Virus record (IMG/VR): IMGVR_UViG_2645727978_000010
DNA from: a virus
Lineage: Duplodnaviria; Heunggongvirae; Uroviricota; Caudoviricetes
Strand: one strand, 5' to 3'
Length of the DNA: 38,285 nt
Below are positions 18,409-24,820 of the stretch, piece after piece. Every line of letters starts with the position of its first letter. Positions within the stretch are counted from its first letter, which is position 1. The position numbers and the translations under genes are program-made. The notes below the pieces were generated by a model, which was not told where the DNA came from, made no database searches, and worked only from the letters and a program-made list of their open reading frames with translations.

Positions 18409-20031
18409 ATGCCGTTACCATTCCCCTTCGATTTTAAACATCCTGATTACCAGATGGTTTTTGAATGGCGGATGGAACGCCTACAGCGCATTCGCCAGAA
18501 TCCTGAAATATTGCCCGTATTGAAGCAGTTTTACCGAACCAATCCGGCTCAGTTCATCATCGACTGGGGCATGACAACGGACCCGCGTAATATTGATTAT
18601 GGCCTGCCGGTGACCATTCCGTTTTTACTCTTCCCTAAGCAGGAGGAGTGGATCCACTGGATTATGGAACGCTGGGGCAATCGGGAGAATGGTATTACCG
18701 AAAAATCCCGTGAAATGGGGCTCAGTTGGACCGCGATCGGACTGGCCTGCTCGCTTTGTCTCTTCAACAAAGAAATGGTTATCGGTTTCGGCTCCCGTAA
18801 AGAGGAATACGTCGACAGCACCGGTGACCCGAAAGCATTGTTCTGGAAGGCACGCAAGTTCGTGGAAACGCTACCTGTAGAGTTTCGCGGTTCGTGGAGC
18901 GAGAAGAAGCACGCGCCATATATGCGTGTTGAGTTTCCTGAAACTGGTGCCGTTATCAAAGGCGAGGCTGGCGATAATATTGGTCGTGGTGACCGTACCA
19001 CGCTTTATCTGGTTGATGAGGCTGCATTCCTTCAGCGTCCTCTGCTGATTGATGCGGCGTTGTCACAAACGACGCGTTGCCGTATCGACCTGAGTTCAGT
19101 TAACGGCATGGCTAACCCGTTCGCTCAGAAGCGTCATGGCGGGAAGATACCGGTATTCACATTCCACTGGCGGGATGATCCTCGCAAGGATGAAGAGTGG
19201 TATCGCAGGGAATGCGAGAAAATCGATAATCCGGTGGTGGTGGCACAGGAACTTGATCTGAACTACAGCGCATCAGCGGAAGGCGTTCTGATTCCATCCG
19301 AATGGGTACAGGCTGCCGTTGATGCGCATATCAAACTGGGTATCCAGCCAACAGGCAAACGACTTGGCGCGATGGATGTCGCCGACGAAGGCAGGGACAA
19401 AAATGCCTTTTCCACCCGTCATGGCTTCCTCCTGGAAAATGTGCGGGAATGGTCCGGTGTGGGCAGCGACATTTATCAGTCCGTCGAGAAGGTTTTCGGC
19501 TTTTGCGAACAGGACAACCTCGAAGAGTTTCGCTTTGACGAGGACGGGCTGGGCGCTGGCGTTCGCGGCGATGCACGCGCTATCAACGAACTGCGTAACG
19601 CTGCGCGTCGACCGTCAATACTTGCCACACCGTTTCGAGGTAGTGGCGCGGTATTTGATCCGGATGATGAAGCTGTTCGCGGGGACAACGGGCAAGCCGC
19701 ACGTCTGAACAAGGACTTCTTCGCTAACGCCAAAGCCCAGAGCTGGTGGCGGTTACGTAAACTTTTTCAGAATACCTGGCGCGCCGTGGTTGAAGGTATG
19801 GCTTACAACCCGGACGAAATCATCTCAATCAGCAGTAGCATGGCACTCAAAGATAAACTCATCATCGAGCTTTCGCAGCCGACCTATTCCATTAATGGTG
19901 TGGGAAAAATCGTTATTGATAAACAGCCTGATGGAACCCGATCGCCAAACCTTGCCGACTCGGTGATGATCAACTATGCCCCAATGAATTCAGCCCTGAA
20001 CATCTGGGAGCTGCTAGGGAGACAGGCCTGA
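18409..20031 (+). CDS. Terminase large subunit (540 aa)
   Basis: Track ORF; size and position between small terminase and portal; Walker-B-like [10 protein letters not shown]. Confidence 0.8.
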
Positions 20032-21497
20032 TGGCACGAAACAAACAAGCCCTGCGGCGAACTGCGCAGGCCACAGCTGATGGTTATGAGAATTTTATTG
20101 CCCGCGTAGGGATGCAGACACCTAACCAGCACTCAGCATCCACCTACCGGGCTAATTTCACCAGTCGTAACCGCATGCTGGTGGAATGGTCCTATCGTTC
20201 ATCCTGGATCATCGGCGAAGCAGTCGATGCTATCCCGGATGATATGACCCGCAAAGGCATTCGCATCACGTCGGAAATTGATGCAAAAGATCGTGGCATT
20301 CTCGAATCACAACTGGATGAGTTGCAAATCTGGGATGCGCTGAATGACGTGCTGAAATGGTCGCGCCTCTACGGCGGCGCGGTGGGTTTCATCATGATTG
20401 AGGGGCAGGCACCAATGACCCCGCTGCGACCCGAAACCATCGGTAAGGGCAAGTTTAAGGGGATTCTCCCGCTCGACCGCTGGATGATCGACCCGGTACT
20501 GACCCGCCGCATTAAAGATATGGGGCCGGACCTGGGTAAACCTGAGTTTTACGATGTGGTGACCACAGCAACGGGAATTCCTGCCTGGCGCATTCATCAC
20601 AGTCGCCTGATTCGCTTTGATGGCGTCACGCTGCCATTTCAGCAGAAGATGACCGAGAACGAATGGGGAATGTCGGTTGTAGAGCGTATCTGGGATCGTC
20701 TTACCGCGTTCGACAGCGCTACTGTCGGCGCGGCGCAGCTGGTCTACAAGGCGCATCTGCGCACCTACAGCGTGGAGAAGCTACGCGAGCTTATCGCACT
20801 TGGTGGTCCTGCGTATGAAGCGTTGCTGAAGAATATCGACCTGATTCGACAGTTCCAGAGCAATGAAGGTATGACACTCATGGACTCGCGGGATAAGTTT
20901 GAAACGCATCAGTACAGCTTCAGTGGTCTGGATGACATCCTTTCGCAGTTTGCAGAACAGATTAGTGGCGCTGTTGGTATCCCACTGGTGCGGTTGTTCG
21001 GACAGTCCCCGAAAGGATTTTCTACCGGCGATGCAGACCTTGCCAACTATTACGACCGGGTAAGCTCGTTACAGGAGAGGCGTTTACGTCTTCCGGTGCG
21101 GCGGATACTGGACATCATGCATCGTTCGGAGCTTGGCAAGCCGCTGCCGGACGATTTCACGTTTGAGTTTAACCCGCTCTGGCAAATGTCTGATGTCGAT
21201 CGCTCAACGGTGGCGTTAAACACTACCAACGCAATCAGTACGGCGCTGGGTGATGGTCTGATGACACTGAAAGCCGCTATGACTGATTTGCGCGAAAATT
21301 CTGACGTAACCGGCATCGGGGCATCCATTACCGACGAGGACATCGAGAATGCCGAAGATGAAGCGCCGCCCGGCATCGGCGAATCTGATGACGAACCGCA
21401 GGAACCGTCAGGCGGAAATCCGCTATCGAACCAGCCTACGCAGGATAGCGCGGGCGGTCGGAGACATCGTAAATGGTCGCTACGATGGTTCAAATGA
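20031..21497 (+). CDS. Portal protein (488 aa)
   Basis: Track ORF; ATG overlaps terminase stop (TGATG); size and position; acidic C-terminal tail. Confidence 0.7.
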   Translation: MARNKQALRRTAQATADGYENFIARVGMQTPNQHSASTYRANFTSRNRMLVEWSYRSSWIIGEAVDAIPDDMTRKGIRITSEIDAKDRGILESQLDELQIWDALNDVLKWSRLYGGAVGFIMIEGQAPMTPLRPETIGKGKFKGILPLDRWMIDPVLTRRIKDMGPDLGKPEFYDVVTTATGIPAWRIHHSRLIRFDGVTLPFQQKMTENEWGMSVVERIWDRLTAFDSATVGAAQLVYKAHLRTYSVEKLRELIALGGPAYEALLKNIDLIRQFQSNEGMTLMDSRDKFETHQYSFSGLDDILSQFAEQISGAVGIPLVRLFGQSPKGFSTGDADLANYYDRVSSLQERRLRLPVRRILDIMHRSELGKPLPDDFTFEFNPLWQMSDVDRSTVALNTTNAISTALGDGLMTLKAAMTDLRENSDVTGIGASITDEDIENAEDEAPPGIGESDDEPQEPSGGNPLSNQPTQDSAGGRRHRKWSLRWFK

Positions 21498-22122
21498 CAG
21501 TATCACGGAAATTATTGAGGCGCTGGAACGCTACAGTGAAATCATCACCCCCTGGGCGACAAAGGTCGCGGAAAACTTTACTGCGGACCTAACCCGGCAG
21601 AACGAGAAAGTTTGGCGGCAACACAGCAAGAACATCAGTCGCGAGCTCCGCAATCTTGTGGAAAGCGCTCCTGTGGGCCAGGTGATGCAATCCATCATCG
21701 CCGAACAGGTCAAGTACATCAAATCGCTCCCCCTCGAGGCGGCTGACAGGGTGTACGACATCCAGAATCGGGCGACAGAAGCTGTTGTGACCGGTGGGAG
21801 AGCAGAATATTTTGCTAAAGAAATAGCCGCATCGGGTGATATAGCAAAGTCCAGAGCTGACCTGATTGCCCGTACTGAACTTGGACGTGCAACCGGCGCG
21901 CTGGATCAGGCGCGTGCGCTGTCAATTGGTTCGAATAGTTATATCTGGCGTACAGCCGAAGATGGTGACGTCAGGCATTCTCATCGGGAAATGGAAGGTA
22001 AATTTGTCGAATGGGGCAAACCTCCAACGCTTGACGGCATGACAGGTCACGCTGGCGAGCTCCCGAATTGTCGCTGTTATAAAGAAATCGTTTTTCCCAC
22101 CTCCCAATCTTATCCCGCCTGA
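21349..22122 (+). CDS. Head morphogenesis (minor head, Mu F/SPP1 gp7-like) protein; start uncertain
   Basis: Track ORF in +1 frame relative to portal, overlapping its last 149 nt; in-frame ATGs at 21349, 21358 and 21388; family assignment positional. Confidence 0.55.
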   Translation: MPKMKRRPASANLMTNRRNRQAEIRYRTSLRRIARAVGDIVNGRYDGSNDSITEIIEALERYSEIITPWATKVAENFTADLTRQNEKVWRQHSKNISRELRNLVESAPVGQVMQSIIAEQVKYIKSLPLEAADRVYDIQNRATEAVVTGGRAEYFAKEIAASGDIAKSRADLIARTELGRATGALDQARALSIGSNSYIWRTAEDGDVRHSHREMEGKFVEWGKPPTLDGMTGHAGELPNCRCYKEIVFPTSQSYPA

Positions 22123-22136
22123 ATCGCAGGTAACAC

Positions 22137-23357
22137 ATGAAATATTTTTTCAATACCCGGCTGGGGGAAACCCGCTATCAGCTGGCTGACGGCTCGTTGC
22201 TGTGCAGAGACGTGCCGATAGGACGAACAGGTAAGCAGCTCTATGGTGCTGATGACCTGCCAAAACTGAAACCCGATAAGTTCGGTGAAATAGTCGTCAC
22301 GCGTTCTCCTGAGCAGGTATTCCATCCGGCCACGCTTGCCTCATTCGAAGGGATGAGCATCACGATTCTGCATCCTGAAGATGAAAACGGGAATGTGCGG
22401 CTGGTAAATCCCGAGAACTGGAAAGAGCTTGCTGTCGGGCACCTCCAGAATGTCCGGCGCGGGACGGGTGAGCAGTCTGATTTGATGCTGGCTGACCTTA
22501 TCGTCAAAGACGAAAACGCCATTCAGCTTATCGAAGATGGCCTGCGCGAAGTGTCGTGCGGCTATGACGCGGAGTACGAGCAGACCGAGCCAGGTAAAGC
22601 TGAGCAGGTCGATATTACCGGAAACCATGTGGCTCTTGTCCCTAAAGGCAGAGCCGGAAATCGTTGTGCAATTGGAGACAGAGACACAATGGCAAATCAA
22701 AAGAAAAACTGGTGGAACCGCATGCGTGCGGCCATCAAGACAGGAGATGCCGACACCATGAACGAACTGGTGGAGTCGGCTCCCGCATCGGTTACAGGAG
22801 ATGAGGGGGATTTGCCGCAGGGCGTTAATCTCAATATCAACCTGTCCCCGCAGCAACCACTACCGGACAAAGCACCAGAGATGGGGGGAGGCCCAACCGG
22901 CGACAGTGATGATGACCTCAAAACATTACTGAAAGCCCTGCTGGCTAAGCTGGAAGGAAATGCCACGGGCGATAACGATAATAAGCCTGACGATAATCCG
23001 ACCGGTGACGGCGAGGACGATGAAGAGGAAACCACGATTACTGGTGACTCAGCCTGGCGTGCCGAAGTTATTGTTCCGGGTATCGATCTGAGCCGTAAGA
23101 TGAAACCGACCGCGTTCAAACGCGAGGTTCTGGCTTCCGCTGACAAAACGCTGGTTCGCCAGATAGTCGGTGATGCGGATATCCGCAAATTGCCGAAACA
23201 ATCGGTCGACATGGCGTTTAATGCCGTGTCTGAGATTGCCAAAGGGCGAAACACCCGCGCCACCACCGGCGATGCACAGCGCCTAAACATGGGCATGACC
23301 AGTATCGCTTCCCTGAACAAACAAAACGCTGAATTCTGGGCAAACCGTAAAGGGTAA
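22137..23357 (+). CDS. Putative capsid scaffolding/prohead-processing protein (406 aa)
   Basis: Track ORF; between head morphogenesis gene and major capsid gene; acidic low-complexity middle (GDSDDD, GDGEDDEEE). Confidence 0.45.
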   Translation: MKYFFNTRLGETRYQLADGSLLCRDVPIGRTGKQLYGADDLPKLKPDKFGEIVVTRSPEQVFHPATLASFEGMSITILHPEDENGNVRLVNPENWKELAVGHLQNVRRGTGEQSDLMLADLIVKDENAIQLIEDGLREVSCGYDAEYEQTEPGKAEQVDITGNHVALVPKGRAGNRCAIGDRDTMANQKKNWWNRMRAAIKTGDADTMNELVESAPASVTGDEGDLPQGVNLNINLSPQQPLPDKAPEMGGGPTGDSDDDLKTLLKALLAKLEGNATGDNDNKPDDNPTGDGEDDEEETTITGDSAWRAEVIVPGIDLSRKMKPTAFKREVLASADKTLVRQIVGDADIRKLPKQSVDMAFNAVSEIAKGRNTRATTGDAQRLNMGMTSIASLNKQNAEFWANRKG

Positions 23358-23360
23358 AAA

Positions 23361-23867
23361 ATGAATAATGTATTTCTGTACCGGATGCCTGTTGGTATTG
23401 CCGGGGCTGTCTCTCGCCCGCAGGACTTAACCGTCGAACCGGTGGTCCTTAAATCCGATAACGCCTTCGCTGCCTATGGGCTGGCTGGTAAATACGATGA
23501 TGACGGTTTTTTCGTGCCGCTGGCAGATGGTGATACCGCAGACAAGGTGAAGGGGATCTACGTGCGCCCTTATCCGACCACGTCGCAGCCGGACATGGTT
23601 CACCAGGTGGGAACAGGCAAGAACTTCCCGGGCGACGCCATGAAGCGTGGCTACGTGACCGTTAATCTCGGTTCTGATTTTGATGCCAGCACTATCAAAA
23701 AAGGCGACCCGGTATACGTTGTCGTCTCCACTGATGAATCCATCAAAGTGCCGCTGGGTGGATTCATGTCCACGTCAGTCAGTGGCAAAAATGTGGTGCT
23801 GACCAACGCTGAATTCACAGGTGCCGGTGATGCTAACGGCAATGCAGAAATTTCCTGGAAGATTTAA
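23361..23867 (+). CDS. Hypothetical head protein (168 aa), possibly decoration-type
   Basis: Track ORF immediately upstream of major capsid gene; function positional guess. Confidence 0.4.
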   Translation: MNNVFLYRMPVGIAGAVSRPQDLTVEPVVLKSDNAFAAYGLAGKYDDDGFFVPLADGDTADKVKGIYVRPYPTTSQPDMVHQVGTGKNFPGDAMKRGYVTVNLGSDFDASTIKKGDPVYVVVSTDESIKVPLGGFMSTSVSGKNVVLTNAEFTGAGDANGNAEISWKI

Positions 23868-23878
23868 GGAACAGACGA

Positions 23879-24820
23879 ATGATTACTTTTGATCAGGCAA
23901 CCGTTGACAGCTCTGGTGCCTTTCTCATCGGGGAGCTGGAGCGACTCGACCAGACGCTGAACCTGCCACTGGTGGGGTACACCTGGACCCGCGATATTCA
24001 GTTGCGTGAAGATGTCTCTATCGCAGATGACATTTCCAGCTGGACGAATACCAGCTTCGCCGCTGCGGGTACTGGTGCAAATCCGAATGGCAAAAACTGG
24101 GTAGGCAAAGACTCAACCGCTATTGCTGGCGTGAACGTGGATACCGGCAAATCCGGTAACCCGCTGAACCTGTGGGGGATGGAACTTGGCTGGACGGTCA
24201 TAGAATTGCAGGCTGCTCAGCAGGTCGGCCGCCCGATTGATACGCAGAAGTATGACGGGATGCAACTGAAATGGCAGATGGATAACGATGAACAGGTATA
24301 TGTTGGCGATTCCGCATTAAACCTGAAAGGCCTTGTTACCCTGGACGGCGTGCCTGTCAACAACGCTGCCAAAACGTGGGCAACCTCAACACCGGACGAA
24401 ATCCGCGCAAGCATTAACCAGGTGCTGTCTGATGCGTGGGCCGCTTCTGGTTACTCTGTGGTCCCGCGTGATTTGCTGATCCCGCCTGAACAGTTTGCTC
24501 TGTTGTCCAGCATCATCGTTTCATCTGCGGGTAACCAGTCCCTGTTGACGTACCTTCAGACCAACACCATCAGCTATCACCAGAACGGTGTTCCGCTGAA
24601 TATCCGCGCGGTTAAATGGCTGAAAGGCCGTGGTGTGGGGAATAAGGATCGCATGGTTGCGTACACCAACGATAAAAAATACGTCCGCTACCCGCTGGTT
24701 CCGCTTCAGAGCGTGCCGGTGCAGTATCGCGGCCTGTATCAGATCGTCACTTACTACGGCAAGCTGGGTGCAGTCGAGCCAGTGTATAAAGAAACTCTGT
24801 CCTATGTGGACGGTATCTGA
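23879..24820 (+). CDS. Major capsid protein (313 aa), putative
   Basis: Track ORF; size, position and a GC-hairpin immediately downstream (24831-24846), as is common after major capsid genes. Confidence 0.55.
   Translation: MITFDQATVDSSGAFLIGELERLDQTLNLPLVGYTWTRDIQLREDVSIADDISSWTNTSFAAAGTGANPNGKNWVGKDSTAIAGVNVDTGKSGNPLNLWGMELGWTVIELQAAQQVGRPIDTQKYDGMQLKWQMDNDEQVYVGDSALNLKGLVTLDGVPVNNAAKTWATSTPDEIRASINQVLSDAWAASGYSVVPRDLLIPPEQFALLSSIIVSSAGNQSLLTYLQTNTISYHQNGVPLNIRAVKWLKGRGVGNKDRMVAYTNDKKYVRYPLVPLQSVPVQYRGLYQIVTYYGKLGAVEPVYKETLSYVDGI

What the first reader, a model, noticed from the sequence alone, without database searches (positions are those of the whole stretch)
21349..21497. 149-nt out-of-frame overlap between portal and head-morphogenesis ORFs
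The head-morphogenesis ORF is in the +1 frame and its only in-frame ATGs (21349, 21358, 21388) all lie inside the portal 3' end. No ATG, GTG or TTG start is available downstream of the portal stop. This is either an unusually long genuine overlap, a recoding or fusion event, or an indel that extended the portal frame.
Basis: seen in the sequence. Interest (0 to 1): 0.35.

Follow-up and report, generated by a model that had tools for sequence, protein, structure and literature searches.

The report
Conserved long portal/MuF gene overlap
The last 149 bases of this prophage's portal gene are also the first 149 bases of the next head gene, read in another frame; the overlap is real, old and selected in both frames, but it is an ordinary (if long) overlapping gene pair that annotation pipelines mis-start, not recoding or an error.

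Summary
The portal ORF (20031-21497, PF06381) and the MuF/SPP1-gp7-like head-morphogenesis ORF (21349-22122, PF04233) share 149 nt, with MuF in the +1 frame.

It is neither an assembly artefact nor a recent indel. The same 146-158-nt overlap occurs in all 173 related enterobacterial loci examined and in 339 of 5,426 complete E. coli genomes.

Of the three in-frame ATGs, only 21349 is conserved (ATG in 157 loci, GTG in 16). It has the best Shine-Dalgarno (GAGGA, 21336-21340), and portal-synonymous sites that maintain this SD and the start codon do not vary.

Both frames are under selection:
- The 3' half (21409-21497) evolves in MuF phase but is the slowest segment of the region.
- There, MuF-synonymous sites are frozen where they spell the portal tail "SN.PT.DS...LRWF(K)*".
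- No conserved RNA structure explains this.

Relatives outside Enterobacterales encode the same MuF N-terminal helix downstream of the portal stop, with 4-8-nt overlaps. The long overlap is therefore derived, arose once, and looks like mutual overprinting. I found no conserved +1 slippery site and no portal-MuF fusion proteins.

Verdict: a genuine long dual-coding overlap, a new member of a known kind, of modest interest. Its main practical value is correcting the MuF start, which PGAP and phage records place variously to give 244, 202 or 176 aa instead of 257.

The parts
20031..21497 (+). Portal gene (488 aa, Phage_portal_3/DUF1073). The structural core is roughly residues 15-452; residues 440-488 are encoded in the overlap.
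   Evidence: ORF. (PF06381, E = 7e-106, residues 55-402). (aligned to Pam3 portal 8hds over residues 15-413 and to 9jlf/9l01 over 61-452).
21349..22122 (+). MuF / SPP1-gp7-like minor head (head-morphogenesis) gene, 257 aa, in the +1 frame relative to the portal gene.
   Evidence: (PF04233, residues 137-243). (homology from residue 1 or 17 onward in distant relatives).
21349..21497 (+). The 149-nt dual-coding overlap.
   Evidence: The clade shows overlaps of 146-158 nt in 173 loci.
21336..21340 (+). Shine-Dalgarno GAGGA for MuF, inside portal codons D-E-D, 8 nt upstream of the ATG.
   Evidence: Conserved in 82 of 83 unique sequences, including the portal-synonymous site 21338, which is always G (GAG, not GAA). 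Anti-SD duplex energy is -5.9 kcal/mol, against -3.0 (ATG 21358), -2.1 (ATG 21388) and -3.5 (ATT 21514).
21349..21351 (+). The MuF start codon; the only conserved start.
   Evidence: ATG in 157 loci and GTG in 16. The portal Asn codon that contains it is AAT in 73 of 73 sequences with Asn, never AAC. In several lineages an in-frame stop lies immediately upstream (ORFopen = start - 3).
21358..21360 (+). Second in-frame ATG; not conserved, so not the start.
   Evidence: Position 21359 is C in 41, T in 39 and A in 3 sequences. Absent in SEN34 and Omnitron.
21388..21390 (+). Third in-frame ATG, used by PGAP to give a 244-aa protein; not conserved and has a weak SD.
   Evidence: PGAP start in the identical E. 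coli prophage. Met in only 66% of the 83 unique sequences, and no start codon lies at that position in most divergent lineages. SD energy -2.1 kcal/mol.
21349..21408 (+). 5' half of the overlap. Encodes the acidic, proline-rich portal linker (NAEDEAPPGIGESDDEPQEPS) and the basic MuF N-terminal arm (MPKMKRRPASANLMTNRRNR). Constraint is low in both frames.
   Evidence: Fastest-evolving segment (pairwise difference 0.443), with no dominant codon phase and about 0.40 amino-acid identity in both frames. The portal motif DIE.A..E.PP is shared with non-overlapping relatives.
21409..21497 (+). 3' half of the overlap. Encodes the conserved first helix and loop of MuF (QAEIRYRTSLRRIARAVGDIVNGRYDGSN) and the portal tail (GGNPLSNQPTQDSAGGRRHRKWSLRWFK*). 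Constrained in both frames.
   Evidence: MuF-phase substitution pattern, but the slowest segment of the region (0.262). MuF amino-acid identity is 0.74; portal-frame identity is 0.53 against an off-frame baseline of 0.25-0.31. Synonymous-codon entropy is 0.476 against 0.750 in non-overlapping MuF (P = 0.004).
21481..21491 (+). Invariant block TACGATGGTTC. It reads Y-D-G-S in MuF and R-W-F in the portal, the portal's terminal Trp motif.
   Evidence: All 11 positions are identical in 82-83 of 83 unique sequences, including the MuF third positions 21483, 21486 and 21489. Identical in 15 divergent lineages. No conserved RNA structure covers it.
21495..21497 (+). Portal stop codon TGA, lying inside MuF codons AAT-GAC.
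   Evidence: Across the clade the stop moves by at most a few codons: LRWF*, LRWFK*, LRWFKR*.

Best explanation
This is a genuine, ancient, out-of-frame overlap of two separately translated head genes.

**How it works**
- The portal is translated through to TGA 21495-21497.
- The MuF-like minor head protein starts on its own at AUG 21349, using the SD GAGGA (21336-21340) that lies inside the portal coding sequence.
- The shared 149 nt therefore encode two things: the portal's C-terminal tail (residues 440-488, beyond the solved portal core) and the MuF N-terminus (a basic arm plus the first conserved helix and loop).

**Shown**
- The overlap, its frame, start codon and SD are conserved in every member of an enterobacterial phage/prophage clade (Brunovirus SEN34-like).
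- Both frames are under purifying selection in the 3' half.
- The 5' half is a low-constraint linker in both proteins.
- Relatives outside the clade have the usual 4-8-nt overlaps.

**Inferred**
- The arrangement arose once. Either a deletion or a stop-loss plus start-shift joined ancestral portal DNA (up to about 21408) to ancestral MuF DNA (from about 21409) out of frame.
- On that view, the distal portal tail and the MuF N-terminal arm are each overprinted on the other gene's DNA.
- MuF translation changed from termination-coupled reinitiation to independent internal initiation. Portal-translating ribosomes passing over that site may help keep MuF a low-copy protein.
For: **Anatomy.**

**Conservation of the arrangement.**
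- 173 loci show 146-158-nt overlaps, all in the +1 frame, with ATG (157) or GTG (16) at the position of 21349.
- 339 of 5,426 complete E. coli genomes carry the region.

**Start site.**
- The second and third ATGs are not conserved.
- In several lineages an in-frame stop sits directly upstream of the first ATG.
- The SD is conserved, with portal-synonymous site 21338 frozen, and the Asn codon holding the ATG is AAT in 73 of 73.
- It has the best anti-SD pairing of all candidate starts.
- The start region is not structured (z = +1.27).

**The MuF N-terminus is real.**
- MuF-phase substitution and 0.74 amino-acid identity in 21409-21497.
- The same helix (ERRY..LRKIARVVG) is encoded downstream of the portal stop in Sulfuricella, Gallionella, Bryobacteraceae and other relatives.

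**The portal tail is also selected.**
- MuF-synonymous sites are frozen at 21429, 21438, 21444, 21447, 21483 and 21486 (83 of 83) and at 21489 (82 of 83). Several of the MuF codons involved are ones I know to be rare in E. coli (CGA, CTA, ATA).
- T is absent, apart from one sequence at 21432 that I did not follow up, at the MuF third positions where it would create a portal-frame stop upstream of LRWF, even where three other bases occur. The T at 21492 is the exception: it ends the Yersinia portals at LRWF*.
- P(portal frame open) = 0.029 under synonymous resampling.
- Portal-frame identity is 0.53 against an off-frame baseline of 0.25-0.31.
- No conserved RNA structure.

**Derived, single origin.** The overlap clade is monophyletic and nested among short-overlap clades in an NJ tree of the MuF core.
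Against: - There is no direct expression evidence: no N-terminal sequencing, mass spectrometry or ribosome profiling.
- The evolutionary sample is dominated by close E. coli relatives. The 13-lineage thinned analysis gives the same picture but is not a formal phylogenetic dN/dS test for overlapping frames.
- The AF2 model of MuF is poor (pLDDT 53), so the structural role of residues 1-50 is not established.
- The origin scenario (deletion versus stepwise shifts) is inference only.
- The portal tails of non-overlapping relatives also end in a Trp motif (..IKAWING*..LIAWVKGNA*). This is awkward for a purely de novo origin of the LRWFK tail.
Confidence: 0.85

Rival explanations
1. The overlap is shorter or absent because MuF really starts further downstream. 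Candidates are ATG 21388 (PGAP's choice, 110-nt overlap), a non-canonical or reinitiation start just after the portal stop (ATT 21511/21514, which is ATG in many relatives), or GTG/ATG at about 21658-21685.
For: - PGAP annotates 21388 in the identical E. coli prophage.
- SEN34, yong1 and many E. coli prophages are annotated from an ATG 13-16 nt after the portal stop, giving 202 aa.
- 689R2 is annotated from a GTG at +94.
- The Pfam MuF domain covers only residues 137-243.
Against: - ATG 21388 is not conserved and has a weak SD.
- The post-stop ATG is ATT in the window and in 60 of 83 unique sequences and has no SD.
- The region upstream of all these sites evolves in MuF codon phase with 0.74 amino-acid identity.
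- That region is homologous to the N-terminus of distant MuF proteins that do not overlap their portal gene.
Confidence: 0.08
2. A programmed +1 (or -2) ribosomal frameshift within 21349-21497 produces a portal-MuF fusion protein, either as the only route to MuF or in addition to separate initiation.
For: - The codon-phase signal switches from portal phase to MuF phase near 21408/21409, as a frameshift junction would.
- From my own knowledge, not tested here: MuF domains are fused to portal or protease genes in some phages.
- A PP(G) motif with a CCC_G codon context lies at 21366-21374.
Against: - No slippery site is conserved. 21371 is C in 56, A in 21 and G in 6 sequences, and the stop context differs between lineages.
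- The MuF ATG and SD are kept by selection on portal-synonymous sites.
- The portal frame is selected right up to its own stop (LRWF).
- No conserved stimulatory RNA structure.
- No fused portal+MuF protein among the 120 listed homologues.
- Relatives with 4-8-nt overlaps need no frameshift.
Confidence: 0.03
3. The overlap is an artefact, or a recent lesion of this particular sequence: an assembly or sequencing indel, or a pseudogenising frameshift, that extended the portal frame.
For: Long out-of-frame overlaps are a common signature of indel errors. 84% of annotated viral gene overlaps are under 50 nt (PMC7017920).
Against: - The same arrangement is found in 339 complete E. coli genomes (24 at 99% identity or more), in cultured phages of Escherichia, Salmonella, Citrobacter and Hafnia, and in 173 loci overall.
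- Both frames show purifying selection.
Confidence: 0.01
4. The portal tail encoded in 21409-21497 has no function: the portal frame simply reads on until the first stop. The frozen MuF-synonymous sites would then reflect something other than portal protein selection, such as codon or translation-rate effects at the MuF 5' end, or mRNA features.
For: - The tail lies outside the solved portal cores.
- L139 has an independent 74-nt overlap whose portal tail lacks any Trp motif.
- Synonymous constraint near gene starts is known in general (my own knowledge).
Against: - The frozen sites coincide with invariant portal residues (N, T, D, S, R, W, F), and MuF uses rare codons at several of them.
- T is avoided at the positions that would create a portal-frame stop upstream of LRWF.
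- The stop position is fixed within a few codons in 173 loci, although P(open) is only about 0.03-0.10 by chance.
- No conserved RNA structure.
- Xenorhabdus-type relatives changed the portal segment upstream but kept the tail.
Confidence: 0.12

Closest known systems
Portal/MuF gene pairs of tailed phages: Mu gp29(H)/gp30(F) and SPP1 gp6/gp7
   Same: Same gene order, with muf immediately downstream of portal (PMC5576092), and the same Pfam families for MuF (PF04233). From that paper, SPP1 gp7 binds the portal and is present in 1-2 copies per capsid, which fits a low-expression gene next to the portal.
   Different: The annotated overlap in Mu is 20 nt. Non-enterobacterial relatives of this very family have 4-8 nt. 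Here it is 149 nt and out of frame, with selection on both frames. The portal belongs to PF06381 (Pam3/E217-like), not to the Mu or SPP1 portal families.
Brunovirus SEN34, Hafnia phage yong1, Citrobacter phage Omnitron, Escherichia phages vB_EcoM-689R2 and similar, and their E. coli/Salmonella prophage relatives
   Same: Orthologous locus at 79-95% nucleotide identity, with the same overlap, start and SD.
   Different: Nothing biological. Only the annotations differ: MuF is called from +16, +13 or +94 after the portal stop, or from the third ATG, so the overlap is hidden or shortened in the public records. The SEN34 paper does not mention it.
Classical overprinted, out-of-frame overlapping phage genes such as phiX174 D/E and A/B/K and lambda Rz/Rz1 (my own knowledge), and the viral overprinting literature (PMC8227390, PMC7017920)
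   Same: One DNA stretch is read in two frames, substitution is damped at sites synonymous in one frame, and one frame dominates in each sub-segment.
   Different: Here there is no embedded novel gene. The termini of two old, homologous genes overlap, so each protein seems to have gained a short overprinted extension (portal tail, MuF arm) rather than a whole new protein being born.
Programmed-frameshift fusions in phage morphogenesis genes, such as the lambda G/GT tail chaperone (-1) and T7 10A/10B (my own knowledge)
   Same: Two overlapping frames at a gene junction within a structural module.
   Different: Those need a conserved slippery heptamer and lack an independent start for the downstream frame. 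Here no slippery site is conserved and the downstream frame has a selected SD and AUG.

Membership tests
Phage_Mu_F / SPP1 gp7 minor head protein family (PF04233) | Significant match to the PF04233 profile above the gathering score | tested here: met
   65.3 bits against a cutoff of 29.6, residues 137-243.
Phage_Mu_F / SPP1 gp7 minor head protein family (PF04233) | Gene located immediately downstream of the portal gene in the packaging/head module | tested here: met
   gene order terL, portal, MuF, DUF2213, cement, MCP. The genomic context is as described in PMC5576092.
Phage_Mu_F / SPP1 gp7 minor head protein family (PF04233) | Low-copy virion or procapsid protein bound to the portal | not testable with these tools
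   Requires virion proteomics or cryo-EM. Known only for SPP1 gp7 (PMC5576092).
Phage_portal_3 (PF06381/DUF1073) portal proteins | Profile match, and homology to solved dodecameric portals | tested here: met
   (354 bits). (Pam3 portal 8hds E = 3e-37; E217 gp19 8fvh E = 2e-14).
Genuine dual-coding (out-of-frame overlapping) gene pair | Both ORFs open across the shared stretch, conserved in orthologues | tested here: met
   173 of 173 loci in the clade. Chance expectation 0.029.
Genuine dual-coding (out-of-frame overlapping) gene pair | Functional start signals for the downstream gene inside the upstream gene | tested here: met
   Conserved AUG/GUG and GAGGA, with frozen portal-synonymous sites. 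The evidence is sequence-based, not experimental.
Genuine dual-coding (out-of-frame overlapping) gene pair | Purifying selection detectable in both frames | tested here: met
   3' half: MuF-phase pattern plus frozen MuF-synonymous sites that spell conserved portal residues. 5' half: weak in both frames, so inconclusive there.
Genuine dual-coding (out-of-frame overlapping) gene pair | Both protein products detected with the predicted termini | not testable with these tools
   No proteomic or ribosome-profiling data available here.
Programmed +1 ribosomal frameshift fusion | Conserved shift-prone codon context (for example CCC_N or CUU_UGA) at a fixed position | tested here: not met
   CCC_G at 21369-21372 varies as CCC, CCA or CCG. 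The stop context is AAA_TGA or CGA_TAG.
Programmed +1 ribosomal frameshift fusion | Downstream frame lacks its own initiation signals, or fusion homologues exist | tested here: not met
   A selected SD and AUG are present. No PF06381+PF04233 fusion among the 120 listed homologues.

The most novel reading that the evidence does not exclude
The overlap records mutual overprinting after an out-of-frame junction of two old genes. The portal lost its ancestral C-terminal Trp motif (..[IL]KAW[ILV][NK]G* in short-overlap relatives). It then re-created a functional equivalent (LRWFK*) in an alternative frame of the MuF gene, placed over a tolerant MuF loop (YDGSND). Meanwhile MuF gained a new basic N-terminal arm read from the portal's acidic linker codons. 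This would be a case of convergent re-evolution of a terminal protein motif under dual-coding constraint. It might also produce charge-complementary partner segments (acidic portal tail, basic MuF arm) from the same DNA.
Probability: 0.3. Interest if true: 0.5.

Novelty: new member of a known kind. Interest (0 to 1): 0.3.

Why it matters
**Practical.** The MuF-family gene of a very common enterobacterial prophage group (6% of complete E. coli genomes) is mis-started in RefSeq/PGAP and in phage records, giving 244, 202, 176 or 149 aa instead of 257. This truncates its most conserved N-terminal helix and hides the overlap. Mutagenesis or engineering in the last 50 codons of the portal gene will also change MuF.

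**Conceptual.** This is a clean, datable example of how a terminal overlap between two essential, non-novel genes can arise once and then be locked in by selection on both frames. Sister lineages with 4-8-nt overlaps give the ancestral state. It points to two short, testable elements: the portal C-terminal Trp motif and the MuF N-terminal arm and helix. These sit at a portal/MuF interface that is poorly understood outside SPP1.

It does not reveal a new mechanism.

Tried and rejected
- **Recoding.** I looked for conserved +1 shift-prone sites and stimulatory structure and found none.
- **RNA structure as the cause of the frozen synonymous sites.** RNAalifold on 15 divergent lineages gave -1.36 kcal/mol with no covarying pairs. 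The start region folds no better than shuffled sequence (z = +1.27).
- **Structure prediction of MuF.** The aim was to see whether residues 1-50 are integral to the fold. The AF2 model was poor (pLDDT 53, pTM 0.38), so I used only its secondary-structure outline and ran no fold search.
- **PDB sequence search for MuF.** No hit.
- **Literature.** No paper describing this overlap turned up in searches for portal+MuF+overlap or for SEN34.
- **Homology of the MuF N-terminus 'MPKMKRRP' with 'MPRLKRP' of a Bryobacteraceae relative.** I judged this probably coincidental. The DNA encoding it in the window is homologous to the portal motif DIE.A..E.PP shared with non-overlapping relatives.
- **Ancestral overlap later resolved by duplication in other clades.** Rejected as less parsimonious, because the overlap clade is nested among several short-overlap clades.
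Full report
**Observation**

The window carries a myovirus-type head module:

| Gene | Coordinates | Family |
|---|---|---|
| Large terminase | 18409-20031 | none found |
| Portal | 20031-21497 | PF06381 |
| MuF / SPP1-gp7-like protein | 21349-22122 | PF04233, residues 137-243 |
| DUF2213 protein | 22137-23357 | PF09979 |
| Cement protein | 23361-23867 | PF23982, PF22758 |
| Major capsid protein | 23879-24820 | PF09950 |

The MuF ORF is in the +1 frame relative to the portal gene. Its in-frame ATGs are at 21349, 21358 and 21388, and the portal stop is TGA 21495-21497, so the overlap is 149 nt as reported.

GTG and ATG codons occur from about 21658, but using them would delete more than 100 conserved residues.

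**Not an artefact**

The 1.3-kb junction is present in 339 of 5,426 complete E. coli genomes, 24 of them at 99% identity or more. It is also present in cultured phages of Escherichia, Salmonella (Brunovirus SEN34), Citrobacter and Hafnia.

I fetched 216 related loci from genomes and viral contigs. In these, 173 loci from Enterobacterales (Escherichia, Shigella, Salmonella, Pantoea, Erwinia, Yersinia, Hafnia, Xenorhabdus and others) have the same +1 overlap of 146-158 nt.

**Where MuF starts**

Only the first ATG is conserved: ATG in 157 loci and GTG in 16. The second and third ATGs are polymorphic. In several lineages an in-frame stop lies directly upstream of the first ATG.

GAGGA at 21336-21340 sits 8 nt upstream and is conserved in 82 of 83 unique sequences. 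Selection on the start signals shows in the portal's synonymous sites:
- The portal Glu codon inside the SD is always GAG.
- The portal Asn codon that contains the ATG is AAT in 73 of 73 sequences.

The anti-SD pairing energy is -5.9 kcal/mol, similar to the capsid gene (-6.1). The other candidates are weaker: -3.0 (21358), -2.1 (21388) and -3.5 (ATT 21514). The start region is not unusually structured.

Public annotations disagree with this and with each other. PGAP uses 21388 in the identical prophage, giving 244 aa. Other records use an ATG 13-16 nt after the portal stop, giving 202 aa, or a GTG at +94. Protein databases hold versions of 257, 244/245, 221, 202, 176 and 149 aa.

**Selection in both frames**

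Across 83 unique clade sequences, variability peaks in different places:
- Portal-only DNA varies most at portal third positions.
- MuF-only DNA varies most at MuF third positions.
- The phase switches inside the overlap at about 21408/21409.

A set of 13 divergent lineages shows the same pattern:

| Segment | Pairwise nucleotide difference | MuF-frame aa identity | Portal-frame aa identity |
|---|---|---|---|
| 3' half of overlap (21409-21497) | 0.262 (slowest in the region) | 0.74 | 0.53 |
| 5' half of overlap (21349-21408) | 0.443 (fastest) | about 0.40 | about 0.40 |
| MuF-only DNA (portal frame is off-frame here) | 0.351-0.469 | 0.48-0.65 | 0.25-0.31 |

The 5' half encodes an acidic, proline-rich portal linker and a basic MuF arm.

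In the 3' half, MuF-synonymous codon entropy is 0.476 against 0.750 in the next 100 MuF codons (P = 0.004). Seven MuF third positions are invariant or nearly so: 21429, 21438, 21444, 21447, 21483, 21486 and 21489. Together they spell invariant portal residues N, T, D, S, R, W and F, and they hold several MuF codons that I know to be rare in E. coli (CGA, CTA, ATA).

T is absent, apart from one sequence at 21432 that I did not follow up, at the MuF third positions where it would create a portal-frame stop upstream of LRWF, even at sites where the other three bases all occur. The T at 21492 is the exception: it ends the Yersinia portals at LRWF*. Given the MuF protein, random synonymous codons keep the portal frame open only 2.9% of the time. 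RNAalifold finds no conserved structure.

The portal tail '..SN.PT.DS....LRWF(K)(R)*' is therefore itself selected. The MuF loop YDGSND that overlies it is hyper-conserved in this clade but variable in non-overlapping relatives.

**Origin**

Relatives outside the clade are environmental contigs and MAGs of Sulfuricella, Gallionella, Desulfomicrobium and Bryobacteraceae. They encode the homologous MuF N-terminal helix (for example ERRYGLTLRKIARVVG) downstream of the portal stop, with 4- or 8-nt overlaps or a gap. One lineage (L139) has an independent 74-nt overlap.

In an NJ tree of the MuF core, the long-overlap clade is monophyletic and nested among short-overlap clades. The portal motif TGI..I.DEDIE.A..E.PP is shared by both groups, so DNA up to at least about 21375 is ancestral portal DNA. 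DNA from about 21409 is ancestral MuF DNA.

The simplest inference is a single ancient out-of-frame junction, by deletion or by stop-loss plus start-shift. After it, the portal read on into MuF DNA and MuF recruited the cryptic SD-ATG inside the portal codons for D-E-D-I-E-N-A.

Many short-overlap portals end in a Trp motif (..IKAWING*..LIAWVKGNA*), and the overlapped tail ends LRWFK*. The motif may have been re-created by convergence. That is the most novel reading left open; I put it at about 0.3.

**Recoding**

A +1 frameshift fusion is not supported:
- There is no conserved shift site or structure.
- There are selected initiation signals for MuF.
- There is selection on the portal frame up to its own stop.
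- No fusion proteins appear among the listed homologues.

**Comparison with known systems**

A muf gene directly after the portal gene is the rule (PMC5576092). Mu H/F overlap by 20 nt as annotated. In viruses overall, 84% of annotated overlaps are under 50 nt, although about half of all viral genomes contain at least one overlap of 50 nt or more (PMC7017920).

So this is an unusually long but not unprecedented terminal overlap: a new member of a known kind. The portal core is related to the Pam3 and E217 portals, and the overlapped tail lies beyond the aligned cores. The AF2 model of MuF was poor (pLDDT 53). It only suggests a helix at residues 10-42, a loop at 43-51 and a helix at 52-82, which would place the portal's terminal motif and stop over a MuF loop.

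**Verdict**

The 'genuine overlap' reading is right, while the recoding and error readings are rejected.

The proposed mechanism is independent internal initiation of MuF within the portal gene, with both frames constrained. This rests on strong comparative evidence and no experimental evidence. Interest is modest at 0.3.

Noticed in passing
L029:238-2376 (Bryobacteraceae MAG DATGMC010000021.1): The portal homologue is 712 aa. It carries a C-terminal PBECR1 domain (a phage Barnase/EndoU/ColicinE5-D/RelE-like nuclease, PF18809, residues 622-709) after the PF06381 portal domain. This could be a portal-toxin/nuclease fusion. Here the MuF gene starts 124 nt after the portal stop.
   Followed up: partly
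L031:2324-3580 and L032:2459-4018: Distant MuF homologues have C-terminal extensions. The Desulfomicrobium MAG protein carries DUF6883 (PF21814). The Gallionella MAG protein is 519 aa with about 280 unannotated C-terminal residues. This recalls the MuF polymorphic-toxin architecture described in PMC5576092.
   Followed up: partly
window 22137-23357, compared with L005:4238-5457: The DUF2213 (scaffold/protease-like) gene is an intact 406-aa ORF in the window. PGAP flags it as 'frameshifted' (1,220 nt) in E. coli FDAARGOS_1059, whose portal/MuF junction is 100% identical.
   Followed up: no
L021:931-2613 and L153 (Xenorhabdus-type relatives): The portal C-terminal segment just upstream of the overlap is replaced by unrelated sequence (..AERIMGSVG..), and the MuF start context differs (GTGATGGC). 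Even so, the overlapped tail (..NQSTKDSA..LRWF..) and an overlap of about 150 nt are kept. The tail is inherited together with the MuF gene across a recombination boundary.
   Followed up: partly
window 21050-21493, minus strand: A mechanical 147-aa antisense ORF (TTG start) spans the overlap region on the opposite strand. There is no evidence that it is a gene.
   Followed up: no
L139:2337-2556 (IMGVR_UViG_3300000096_000003): An independent, intermediate case. It has a 74-nt +1 portal/MuF overlap in a different clade, and its portal tail lacks the Trp motif. This suggests the junction is evolutionarily labile in this phage family.
   Followed up: partly
window 20031 (terL stop / portal start) and L217 (phage Mu 16073-16092): The terminase and portal genes share a single nucleotide (terL ends at 20031 and portal starts at 20031). 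The annotated phage Mu gp29/gp30 overlap is 20 nt. I used both only as a baseline for typical junctions.
   Followed up: no
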